A stretch of 64,000 bases of DNA from assembly GCF_988242995.1 (NCBI RefSeq), contig NZ_OZ547043.1; one strand, given 5' to 3'. Every line of letters begins with the position of its first letter. Within the stretch, counting starts at the first letter, position 1. Positions 55,201 to 58,200 of this stretch are shown piece after piece. Made by a program: the position numbers.

Positions 55201-58200
55201 GTGGTGCACAACTCTCGGCTTTAGAGGGCACAGAGAATAGCACGGAAAGAGAGCAAGGAAAACGGTTGCGTGGCTGTGAAATCAGCAAAGTTGCGGGTTT
55301 TTTAAAACGGAAAATGAATCAGCTCAACGTCATCCGCCGTGACTTTCACCATCGAACCTTCCGTATGCCAGGCACCCAGCACGACGCGGAAAGCAGGTTG
55401 CTGATTGGCGATAAGTTCATGTACTGCCGGGCGATGGGTATGCCCGTGAATCAGCCATTGCACCTGATGTTTTTCCATCGCACTGACTACCGCGTTTTGG
55501 TTAACGTCCATGATCGCCAGCGATTTACTGCTGTTGGCTTCTTTGCTGTTCGCGCGCATTCGCGCGGCAATGCGTTTGCGCACAAACAACGGCAGGGCGA
55601 GGAATAGCGTTTGCAGCCAGGGTTTGTGGACTTTGGCGCGAAAAGCCTGATAACCGGCGTCATCGGTGCACAGCGTGTCGCCATGCATAATCAATACCCG
55701 GCGACCATACAGTTCGAGCACCTTTTCTTCCGGCAATAACGTCATGCCGCTTTCACGGGCAAAGCGTTTGCCGAGCAGAAAATCACGGTTGCCATGAATG
55801 AAATAACAGGGAACGCCGGAATCGGACACCGCTTTGATCGCTGCCGCCATCTGGCGATGGAGTGGGTTGGGATCGTCGTCGCCAATCCACGCTTCAAACA
55901 GATCGCCAAGAATATACAGCGCGTCGGCCTTGCGGGCTTCCCCCGCTAAAAAACGCAGAAAACCGGCGGTGATCGCCGGTTCTTCCGCGCAGAGATGAAG
56001 ATCTGCAATAAAGAGTGTCGCCACGATTACTCGCTAACGGTCACGCTTTCAATGATAACGTCTTCTTTTGGCACGTCCTGGTGCATACCGCTACGACCGG
56101 TTGCAACACCTTTGATTTTGTCTACCACGTCCATGCCTTCAACCACTTCAGCAAACACGCAGTAACCCCAACCTTGCAGGCTTTCGCCGGAGAAGTTCAG
56201 GAAGTCGTTATCAACCACGTTGATGAAGAACTGTGCAGTTGCAGAGTGCGGAGCCTGAGTACGGGCCATTGCCAGCGTACCACGGGTATTTTTCAGACCG
56301 TTGTTGGCTTCGTTTTTGATCGGTTCTTTGGTGGCTTTTTGCTTCATGCCCGGTTCAAAACCGCCGCCCTGAATCATAAAGCCGTTGATAACACGGTGGA
56401 AAATGGTGTTGTTGTAAAAACCTTCGCGGCAGTAGTCCAGGAAGTTTTTAACTGTTTCAGGTGCTTTATCGTCAAAAGTTTTGATGACAATATCGCCGTG
56501 ATTGGTGTGGAAAGTAACCATTTTTGCATCCTGTTCCGTTTGATTGGTGCTTCAACCCGGTTCGGGTCATATATAGGGTGGTGTTATAGCATAACCGCAC
56601 GATCGGATCATCACGCAATGTATGCTGATTCGCGCGGGAAATATGGGTATTATACGCAACTCAATTACCCACACATGTCTAAACGGAATCTTCGATGCTA
56701 AAAATCTTCAATACTCTGACACGCCAAAAAGAGGAATTTAAGCCTATTCACGCCGGGGAAGTCGGCATGTACGTGTGTGGAATCACCGTTTACGATCTCT
56801 GTCATATCGGTCACGGGCGTACCTTTGTTGCCTTTGACGTGGTTGCGCGCTATCTGCGTTTCCTCGGCTATAAGCTGAAGTATGTGCGCAACATTACTGA
56901 TATCGACGACAAAATCATCAAACGCGCCAATGAAAATGGCGAAAGCTTTGTGGCGCTGGTGGATCGCATGATCGCCGAAATGCACAAAGATTTTGATGCT
57001 TTGAACATTCTGCGCCCGGATATGGAGCCGCGCGCGACGCACCATATCGCAGAAATTATTGAACTCACTGAACAACTGATCGCCAAAGGTCACGCTTATG
57101 TGGCGGACAACGGCGACGTGATGTTTGACGTACCGACCGATCCGACATATGGCGTGCTGTCGCGTCAGGATCTCGACCAGCTGCAGGCAGGCGCGCGCGT
57201 TGACGTGGTCGACGACAAACGCAACCCGATGGACTTCGTTCTGTGGAAGATGTCGAAAGAGGGCGAACCGAGCTGGCCGTCTCCGTGGGGCGCGGGCCGT
57301 CCAGGCTGGCACATTGAATGTTCGGCAATGAACTGCAAGCAGCTGGGTAACCACTTTGATATCCACGGCGGCGGTTCAGACCTGATGTTCCCGCACCACG
57401 AGAACGAAATCGCTCAGTCCACCTGTGCGCATGATGGTCAGTATGTGAACTACTGGATGCACTCCGGGATGGTAATGGTTGACCGCGAGAAGATGTCGAA
57501 ATCGCTGGGTAACTTCTTTACCGTGCGCGATGTGCTGAAATACTACGATGCTGAAACCGTGCGTTACTTCCTGATGTCAGGCCACTATCGCAGCCAGCTG
57601 AACTACAGCGAAGAGAACCTGAAGCAGGCGCGTGCGGCGCTGGAGCGTCTCTACACTGCGCTGCGCGGCACCGATAAAACCGTTGCGCCTGCCGGTGGCG
57701 AAGCGTTTGAAGCGCGCTTTATTGAAGCGATGGACGACGATTTCAACACCCCGGAAGCCTATTCCGTACTGTTTGATATGGCGCGTGAAGTAAACCGTCT
57801 GAAAGCAGAAGATATGGCAGCGGCGAACGCGATGGCGTCTCATCTGCGTAAACTTTCCGCCGTATTGGGCCTGCTGGAGCAAGAACCGGAAGCGTTCCTG
57901 CAAAGCGGCGCGCAGGCAGACGACAGCGAAGTGGCTGAGATTGAAGCGTTAATTCAACAGCGTCTGGATGCCCGTAAAGCGAAAGACTGGGCGGCGGCAG
58001 ATGCGGCGCGTGACCGTCTTAACGAGATGGGGATCGTGCTGGAAGATGGCCCGCAAGGGACCACCTGGCGTCGTAAGTAATTGCGCTATTGCCGGATGCG
58101 AGTTTTCGCATCCGGTTATCGTCTGCGCCACCACAACATTCCTATCAGTAGCATCCCCGGCAACCATACCCACATCAATTCAGAAATAATCACCTGATGT

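What the first reader, a model, noticed from the sequence alone, without database searches (positions are those of the whole stretch)
55255..55271. PurR-box-like sequence upstream of purE
Minus-strand ACGCAACCGTTTTCCTT matches the PurR operator consensus, positioned ~70 nt upstream of the purE start.
Basis: partly seen in the sequence, partly recalled or inferred. Interest (0 to 1): 0.2.

Follow-up and report, generated by a model that had tools for sequence, protein, structure and literature searches.

The report
Known PurR operator of purEK

Summary
The observation and its interpretation are both correct, and the feature is already known. The window is E. coli. Minus-strand 55271..55256 (ACGCAACCGTTTTCCT) lies in the 117-bp lpxH-purE spacer, 71 nt upstream of the purE ATG (55184). 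Its plus-strand reading, AGGAAAACGGTTGCGT, is letter for letter the purE-purK motif in the PurR ChIP-chip study of K-12 (Cho et al. 2011). A PWM built from the 27 other ChIP-defined sites scores it 19.8 bits (rank 13 of 28; P = 1.1e-7 per position; 0.014 expected per window), the best hit in the window. Published start sites (42 nt upstream of the ATG in both MG1655 and O157:H7 EDL933) place the box at -45..-30, over the -35 position of a promoter with a conserved extended -10 (TGCTATTCT). In 54 of 55 Enterobacterales species sampled, a site of at least 17.9 bits sits at the same offset. The box is 96% conserved against 40% for the flank just upstream. RNA-structure and terminator alternatives fail. 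The one mildly interesting by-product is a PurR-like 16-mer inside folD codons 8-13, invariant across at least 7 genera, but folD expression barely tracks purE.

The parts
55256..55271 (-). PurR operator of the purEK promoter. A 16-bp imperfect palindrome, ACGCAACCGTTTTCCT on the minus strand and AGGAAAACGGTTGCGT on the plus strand, with a central CpG. It spans -45..-30 relative to the transcription start.
   Evidence: Sequence read directly. Identical to the purE-purK motif in Cho et al. 2011 Table 1. Leave-one-out PWM score 19.76 bits, P = 1.1e-7. 95.6% column conservation in 56 Enterobacterales sequences against 40.5% for the 5' flank. Intact in all 25 evenly sampled E. coli genomes.
55257..55262 (-). 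Weak -35-like hexamer TTTTCC (3 of 6 matches to TTGACA), 17 nt upstream of the -10 hexamer. It lies entirely inside the right half of the PurR box.
   Evidence: Geometry computed from the published start site. The consensus promoter scan found no canonical -35/-10 pair, which fits a promoter that relies on an extended -10. The assignment of this hexamer is inferred.
55234..55242 (-). Extended -10 element TGC-TATTCT. The TG is at -16/-15 and the hexamer at -13..-8.
   Evidence: 96.2% conserved across 56 Enterobacterales sequences, a second conserved island. T..TA.T.T is invariant in 14 genera including Pasteurellaceae. Position relative to the start site.
55185..55226 (-). purEK transcription start (55226) and 42-nt 5' UTR, with Shine-Dalgarno AGGAG at 55200..55196.
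   Evidence: Start-codon-to-TSS distance is 42 nt in MG1655 (RegulonDB 10.5) and 42 nt in EDL933 by Cappable-seq (PMC10469882, Table S5 sheet 3). The Shine-Dalgarno region is 89% conserved. No Rfam family and no significant structure.
54675..55184 (-). purE, N5-carboxyaminoimidazole ribonucleotide mutase, the first gene of the regulated operon.
   Evidence: TIGR01162 at 7.8e-66. RefSeq annotation in K-12 and O157:H7.
53611..54678 (-). purK, N5-CAIR synthase, the second gene. Its start overlaps the purE stop by 4 nt (ATGA).
   Evidence: NF004678 at 1.9e-203. Expression tracks purE with r = 0.97 and slope 0.98 over 49 conditions.

Best explanation
The 16-bp sequence at 55256..55271 is the operator of the purEK operon for PurR, the LacI-family purine repressor. 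When purines are abundant, hypoxanthine or guanine binds PurR as corepressor. The PurR dimer then binds this imperfect palindrome, which spans -45..-30 and covers the -35 position of the purEK promoter. Bound there, it hinders RNA polymerase from initiating, so synthesis of PurE and PurK (steps 6a/6b of de novo IMP synthesis) falls. When purines are scarce, PurR releases the site and the promoter fires from its extended -10 element. Shown here or in the cited papers: the sequence match, in vivo PurR occupancy of the identical K-12 sequence and its increase with adenine, the start-site position, conservation, and purE-purK co-regulation independent of lpxH. Inferred: that repression works by occluding the -35 region, and that this particular strain behaves like K-12.
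For: (1) Sequence identity with the ChIP-chip-defined purE-purK PurR motif AGGAAAACGGTTGCGT. Log2 enrichment was 2.08 with adenine and 0.86 without (Cho et al. 2011, PMC3159470, Table 1). The paper lists purEK among the IMP-synthesis operons repressed by PurR-hypoxanthine. (2) The leave-one-out PWM gives 19.76 bits, rank 13 of 28 real sites, P = 1.1e-7, and it is the best hit in the window. (3) The TSS is 42 nt upstream of the ATG in both K-12 and O157:H7, so the box lies at -45..-30 over the -35 position. Cho et al. state that PurR sites generally lie in the -35/-10 region. (4) Phylogenetic footprint: 54 of 55 Enterobacterales species have a site of at least 17.9 bits at a fixed offset from the PurE coding motif. 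In 58 loci from other taxa the best-hit scores have a median of 3.75 bits, and only one reaches 13 bits, at a different position. Only 2 of the 16 positions vary, and both are positions that also vary among known PurR sites. Column conservation is 0.956 for the box against 0.405 for the flank immediately 5', and GCAAnCGTTT is invariant in 14 genera including Pasteurellaceae. (5) Within E. coli, the box is present in 5425 of 5426 genomes and intact in all 25 evenly sampled ones. This includes an allele in which about 450 bp of unrelated DNA replaces the 38 bp upstream right up to the edge of the box. (6) The repressor gene purR is present in 5424 of 5426 E. coli genomes. PurR has solved structures, including 1pnr and 1bdi. 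(7) Expression: purE and purK co-vary (r = 0.97). In the most repressed conditions purE falls a further 1.8 log2 while lpxH does not change. The PurR-1 iModulon, described as the purine biosynthetic pathway genes, goes down when adenine is added.
Against: Nothing substantive. No binding or reporter experiment exists for this exact strain. The consensus promoter scan finds no canonical sigma-70 promoter, so the -35 assignment is inferred from the published start site. The conditions behind the expression columns used were not identified. The original footprinting and primer-extension papers (Tiedeman 1989, Watanabe 1989, He 1990) could not be read with these tools.
Confidence: 0.96

Rival explanations
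1. The conserved island is simply the -35/UP region of the purEK promoter, conserved for RNA polymerase contact, and its resemblance to a PurR box is incidental.
For: The box overlaps the -35 position, and promoter elements are themselves conserved. The adjacent extended -10 is 96% conserved.
Against: The -35-like hexamer is poor (TTTTCC, 3 of 6). Conservation covers the whole 16-bp palindrome, including the distal half at -45..-38. The two positions that vary change only to bases seen in other PurR sites. ChIP-chip shows adenine-enhanced PurR occupancy at this motif.
Confidence: 0.02
2. It is a chance match to a short degenerate consensus.
For: With up to 2 mismatches allowed, 22 of 100 shuffled windows gave at least one match to the consensus.
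Against: The actual match has 1 mismatch. PWM P = 1.1e-7, with 0.014 expected per window. The site lies in the promoter of a purine-synthesis operon and is conserved at a fixed offset in 54 of 55 Enterobacterales species.
Confidence: 0.005
3. The palindrome acts at the RNA level, as an lpxH terminator or 3'-UTR hairpin or as a purE leader element.
For: It is an imperfect palindrome 31 nt downstream of the lpxH stop codon.
Against: No terminator-like site was found. The predicted fold of 55305..55227 is -8.1 kcal/mol with z = -0.21, and 78 of 200 shuffles fold as well; the box is not in a stable stem. There is no Rfam match at E <= 1. The box is upstream of the purE start site, so it is absent from the purEK mRNA made from this promoter.
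Confidence: 0.005
4. The site is bound mainly by another LacI/GalR-family regulator with a similar CG-centred palindrome, such as RbsR or CytR, rather than by PurR.
For: LacI-family operators resemble each other, and the closest solved paralogue of PurR is the ribose repressor.
Against: The ChIP used PurR itself, occupancy rose with adenine, and the PWM was built only from PurR-bound sites. Occupancy by other family members was not tested here.
Confidence: 0.01

Closest known systems
E. coli K-12 purEK operator for PurR (Cho et al. 2011 ChIP-chip; from memory also He et al. 1990, Tiedeman et al. 1989 and Watanabe et al. 1989, which could not be read here)
   Same: It is the same element. The 16-mer and the whole 201-bp region compared are identical to K-12 MG1655, with the same gene order lpxH-purE-purK.
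   Different: Nothing at the operator. The window's strain differs only nearby, with an IS1397 insertion downstream of purK.
purF operator and the other promoter-proximal pur operators (purL, purMN, purHD, purC, purT)
   Same: The same 16-bp CG-centred palindrome family, located in the -35/-10 region, with repression of initiation by PurR bound to hypoxanthine or guanine. PurR has solved structures such as 1pnr and 1bdi; that these are complexes with corepressor and the purF operator is from memory.
   Different: The purE site is less symmetric (5 of 8 complementary pairs). It carries AACCG rather than AAACG in one half-site, a variant shared with purB, purL and guaBA. It scores mid-range at 19.8 bits, against 24.7 for purT.
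purB and purR intragenic operators (roadblock type)
   Same: The same repressor and the same motif.
   Different: Those sites lie inside coding sequence and block elongation. The purE site lies upstream of the start site and acts on initiation. The folD site noted in passing resembles this class in position only.
Bacillus subtilis PurR and its PurBox
   Same: The same physiological role, purine-responsive repression of the pur operon.
   Different: An unrelated protein family (PRT-type fold that senses PRPP and ppGpp; see the title and abstract of PMC8789054) and an unrelated DNA motif. This is analogy, not homology.

Membership tests
E. coli-type PurR (LacI family) operator / pur regulon | A 16-bp imperfect palindrome matching ACGCAAACGTTTGCGT with a central CpG | tested here: met
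   ACGCAACCGTTTTCCT has 1 mismatch to ACGCAAACGTTTTCNT. The central CG is present and 5 of 8 pairs are symmetric.
E. coli-type PurR (LacI family) operator / pur regulon | A PWM score within the range of experimentally bound PurR sites | tested here: met
   The leave-one-out PWM gives 19.76 bits, rank 13 of 28 ChIP-defined sites, whose scores range from 8.4 to 24.7 bits. P = 1.1e-7.
E. coli-type PurR (LacI family) operator / pur regulon | Identity with a site shown to be occupied by PurR in vivo in a purine-dependent way | tested here: met
   The string is identical to the purE-purK motif of Cho et al. 2011 Table 1, with log2 enrichment 2.08 with adenine and 0.86 without. The K-12 region is identical to the window. 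The binding experiment itself is published, not repeated here.
E. coli-type PurR (LacI family) operator / pur regulon | Position that can repress: overlapping the promoter of a purine or nucleotide metabolism gene | tested here: met
   The TSS is 42 nt upstream of the ATG in two strains, which puts the box at -45..-30. The downstream genes are purE and purK.
E. coli-type PurR (LacI family) operator / pur regulon | The cognate repressor gene purR is present in the genome | tested here: inconclusive
   purR is not in this 64-kb window. It is present in 5424 of 5426 complete E. coli genomes, so it is almost certainly present, but the window's own genome cannot be inspected.
E. coli-type PurR (LacI family) operator / pur regulon | The site is conserved upstream of orthologous genes in related species that have PurR | tested here: met
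   54 of 55 Enterobacterales species and 2 of 4 Pasteurellaceae have a site at the corresponding place. 58 loci from other taxa have a median best hit of 3.75 bits. Box conservation is 0.956 against 0.405 for the flank. See alignment A2.
E. coli-type PurR (LacI family) operator / pur regulon | The downstream operon is repressed by purines in a PurR-dependent way | tested here: inconclusive
   Published: purEK is listed among the operons repressed by PurR-hypoxanthine, and the PurR-1 iModulon (purine biosynthetic genes) goes down with adenine. My re-analysis shows purE and purK co-varying over a 3.6-log2 range independently of lpxH, but the conditions were not identified and the per-gene tables of Cho et al. 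are not held.
E. coli-type PurR (LacI family) operator / pur regulon | Direct binding of PurR with corepressor to this DNA from this strain | not testable with these tools
   This needs an EMSA or DNase footprint.

The most novel reading that the evidence does not exclude
Besides blocking initiation, PurR bound at -45..-30 might also act as a roadblock to transcripts reading through from ppiB-lpxH. No intrinsic terminator or stable hairpin separates lpxH from purE, so under purine excess the operator could insulate purEK from upstream transcription, as the intragenic purB operator blocks elongation. Together with the invariant PurR-like 16-mer inside folD 4.6 kb away, this would extend roadblock-type PurR control beyond purB and purR.
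Probability: 0.1. Interest if true: 0.25.

Novelty: already known. Interest (0 to 1): 0.05.

Why it matters
It matters little beyond correct annotation. The site is a useful positive control. It shows what a real transcription-factor site looks like across the available tests: a PWM score in the range of bound sites, a fixed offset from the gene, a sharp conservation island against unalignable flanks, and survival of an indel that ends exactly at its edge.

Tried and rejected
(1) The original papers could not be read, so their footprinting and primer-extension results are cited from memory only: He 1990 (PMID 2198266), Tiedeman 1989 (PMID 2464576; PMC209574 was my guess at its id) and Watanabe 1989 (PMC209573). 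(2) TSS coordinates were sought in the Cappable-seq supplements (PMC4782308) and gene names in the SMRT-Cappable-seq supplements (PMC6131387). Neither was found in the stored, truncated text. The TSS came instead from PMC10469882 Table S5. (3) The consensus sigma-70 scan found no promoter or terminator in 55100..55450. The promoter was therefore defined from the published TSS and conservation, not from the scan. (4) The RNA-level explanation was rejected: fold z = -0.21 and no Rfam hit. (5) No direct repeats were found in the spacer, and the only inverted repeat is a small palindrome at 55201..55212 in the 5' UTR. (6) No supplementary tables are held for Cho et al., so per-gene fold changes for purE, purK and folD in the purR deletion could not be checked. 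(7) Literature searches for a folD-PurR link in E. coli were swamped by the ordinary word 'fold' or returned only Firmicutes papers. (8) My first estimate that about 180 genomes carry the extra-ORF allele was wrong. Sampling points to roughly a fifth of genomes.

Full report
WHAT IS THERE. The window is Escherichia coli. The 201 bp around the finding are 100% identical to many E. coli genomes, including O157:H7 strains, and are present in 5425 of 5426 complete genomes. On the minus strand the local gene order is ppiB, lpxH (55302..56024), purE (54675..55184) and purK (53611..54678), each identified by curated NCBIfam models and matching the RefSeq annotation of K-12 and O157:H7. The reported string ACGCAACCGTTTTCCTT is on the minus strand at 55271..55255. 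It lies in the 117-bp lpxH-purE spacer, with 70 nt between it and the purE ATG.

IS IT MORE THAN CHANCE. The classical consensus with up to two mismatches hits only this place in 64 kb. That test alone is weak, with 0.30 matches expected. I took the 28 motif instances from the PurR ChIP-chip study of Cho et al. 2011 (PMC3159470, Table 1), removed the purE instance, and built a PWM from the other 27. The site scores 19.76 bits of a possible 24.94 and ranks 13th of the 28 bound sites when each is scored leave-one-out. Its exact P is 1.1e-7 per position, or 0.014 expected per window on both strands. It is the best hit in the window by 4.5 bits.

IT IS THE PUBLISHED SITE. The plus-strand reading of 55256..55271, AGGAAAACGGTTGCGT, is identical to the motif Cho et al. 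list for the purE-purK binding region. PurR enrichment there was log2 2.08 with adenine and 0.86 without. K-12 MG1655 is identical to the window across the whole region compared. The same paper lists purEK among the IMP-biosynthesis operons repressed by the PurR-hypoxanthine complex. From memory, not verifiable here: this operator was first noted when purEK was sequenced in 1989 and was included in the pur-regulon operator comparison of He et al. 1990.

PROMOTER GEOMETRY AND MECHANISM. A published comparison of start sites gives a start-codon-to-TSS distance of 42 nt for purE both in MG1655 (RegulonDB 10.5) and in O157:H7 EDL933 by Cappable-seq (PMC10469882, Table S5). This puts +1 at window 55226. 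It puts TATTCT (55239..55234) at -13..-8, preceded by TG at -16/-15 (an extended -10 element), and the PurR box at -45..-30. The only -35-like hexamer at proper spacing, TTTTCC, is weak and lies wholly inside the box. This explains why the consensus promoter scan found nothing. Cho et al. note that PurR sites generally lie in the -35/-10 region and regulate initiation. The most likely mechanism is therefore the standard one: PurR dimer loaded with hypoxanthine or guanine occupies the -35 region and excludes RNA polymerase. Occupancy and its purine dependence are published. The occlusion step is inferred from position. PurR has many solved structures, such as 1pnr and 1bdi.

INDEPENDENT SUPPORT FROM OTHER GENOMES. 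I scanned one genome per species with a degenerate DNA pattern for the PurE peptide [11 protein letters not shown], which returned 120 loci. Scoring the 330 nt upstream with the same leave-one-out PWM gave a clean split. Of 55 Enterobacterales species, 54 carry a site of at least 17.9 bits at a fixed offset: -113 to -115 in most, -128 in Rosenbergiella and an unnamed Enterobacterales isolate (L072), and -156 in Morganella. The exception is the endosymbiont Candidatus Fukatsuia. Two of four Pasteurellaceae have sites of 13.8 and 16.2 bits at a corresponding position. The 58 loci from other taxa have a median best hit of 3.75 bits, and only one exceeds 13 bits, at an unrelated position. Among the 54 sites only two of the 16 positions vary, and they vary only to bases found at those positions in other PurR sites. 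In an alignment of 56 distinct Enterobacterales sequences, column identity to the window is 0.956 in the box, 0.405 in the 30 nt just upstream, 0.608 in the spacer and 0.962 in the extended -10. A 14-genus alignment shows GCAAnCGTTT invariant while the sequence immediately 5' cannot be aligned.

WITHIN E. COLI. A 42-nt query covering the box, spacer and -10 is found in 5425 of 5426 genomes, exact in 4215. I fetched all six imperfect matches from an evenly spaced sample of 25. All keep the 16-mer intact. Their substitutions fall at 55272, 55255, 55252 and 55233. Five of the six carry a different lpxH-purE allele, in which about 450 bp holding a 109-aa hypothetical ORF replaces the 38 bp upstream of the box. 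Homology resumes exactly at the first base of the box. The repressor gene purR is present in 5424 of 5426 genomes.

EXPRESSION. In the part of the PRECISE compendium that is held (49 conditions; PMC6892915, supplement 3), purE and purK co-vary with r = 0.97 and slope 0.98 over a 3.6-log2 range. In the two most repressed conditions purE drops a further 1.8 log2 while lpxH, immediately upstream, changes by +0.01. This fits a separately regulated promoter between lpxH and purE. I could not identify the conditions. The paper describes the PurR-1 iModulon as the purine biosynthetic genes, down-regulated by adenine.

RIVALS. A chance match is excluded by the PWM statistics and the conservation. An RNA-level role is excluded: there is no terminator-like site, the fold is no better than shuffles (z = -0.21), there is no Rfam match, and the box lies upstream of the start site. 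'Just a -35 element' does not explain conservation of the whole palindrome, the PurR-compatible pattern of substitutions, or the ChIP signal. Binding by another LacI-family protein is not supported, since the ChIP targeted PurR and the occupancy responded to adenine.

VERDICT. Both the observation and the interpretation are correct. The feature is the already known purEK PurR operator and is not novel.

BY-PRODUCTS. (1) The second-best PWM hit in the window, GGTAAAACGATTGCGC at 59804..59789 (15.28 bits; P = 2.8e-6; 0.36 expected per window), lies inside folD at codons 8-13. On its own it could be chance. However, it is identical in all 12 folD loci available, from at least 7 genera, including five synonymous positions. 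The longest invariant run in the first 300 nt of folD (nt 22-44) covers it exactly. Against a real function: folD codons 1-16 are conserved in general, folD is not among the 35 ChIP regions, and folD expression follows purE no better than cysS or ppiB do (slope 0.17). (2) An IS1397 (IS3-family) copy sits between the carbamate kinase gene ybcF and purK. It is absent from K-12 and from the O157:H7 genome examined.

Noticed in passing
window 59789..59804 (minus strand), inside folD (CDS 58959..59825): A PurR-like 16-mer, GGTAAAACGATTGCGC (15.28 bits, P = 2.8e-6), at folD codons 8-13, +62..+77 from the published folD start site. It is identical in 12 loci from at least 7 enterobacterial genera, including 5 synonymous positions, and the longest invariant run in the first 300 nt of folD covers it. 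Against a function: folD is not a ChIP-chip target, its expression barely tracks purE (slope 0.17, like cysS and ppiB), and the first 16 codons are conserved in general. From memory, Ravcheev et al. 2002 predicted folD as a PurR target in some gamma-proteobacteria; this was not verified.
   Followed up: partly
window ~52070..53597 (orfA 52948..53478, orfB 52121..52843, minus strand): An IS3-family insertion sequence, annotated IS1397 in RefSeq genomes, lies between ybcF (carbamate kinase) and purK. It is absent at this place in K-12 (195-bp gap) and in O157:H7 PV15-279. 48 of 5426 genomes have a place covering at least 80% of a query that spans this region. From memory, IS1397 targets REP/BIME palindromic units, which would fit an intergenic insertion here; this was not tested.
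   Followed up: partly
L001 350..884 and L002 1057..1591 (E. coli BCE049 and EC08); corresponds to window 55272..55309: An alternative lpxH-purE intergenic allele. About 450 bp carrying a 109-aa hypothetical, apparently membrane protein (no Pfam match) replaces the 38 bp upstream of the PurR box, with the junction exactly at the 5' edge of the box. It is probably present in about a fifth of E. coli genomes (5 of the 6 lower-band genomes sampled, from a band of 1210) and apparently also in E. albertii.
   Followed up: partly
window 55227..55301: No intrinsic terminator or stable hairpin lies between the lpxH stop and the purE promoter, so ppiB-lpxH transcripts may read into purEK. Whether PurR also blocks such read-through is unknown.
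   Followed up: partly
L063 (Candidatus Fukatsuia symbiotica), 330 nt upstream of the PurE motif: This is the only Enterobacterales locus of 55 without a PurR box upstream of purE (best hit 5.9 bits), possibly reflecting regulon decay in an endosymbiont.
   Followed up: no
L077 (record titled Chryseobacterium sp. 18061): This contig has a purE upstream region with the same PurR-box variant and offset as Enterobacter-like genomes (17.9 bits at -115). That suggests a mislabelled or contaminated assembly.
   Followed up: no
L019 and L028 (Pasteurellaceae) in alignment A2: In Bisgaardia and Actinobacillus the PurR box sits 8-9 nt closer to the conserved -10-like element than in Enterobacterales. 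The operator-promoter register therefore differs between the families.
   Followed up: no
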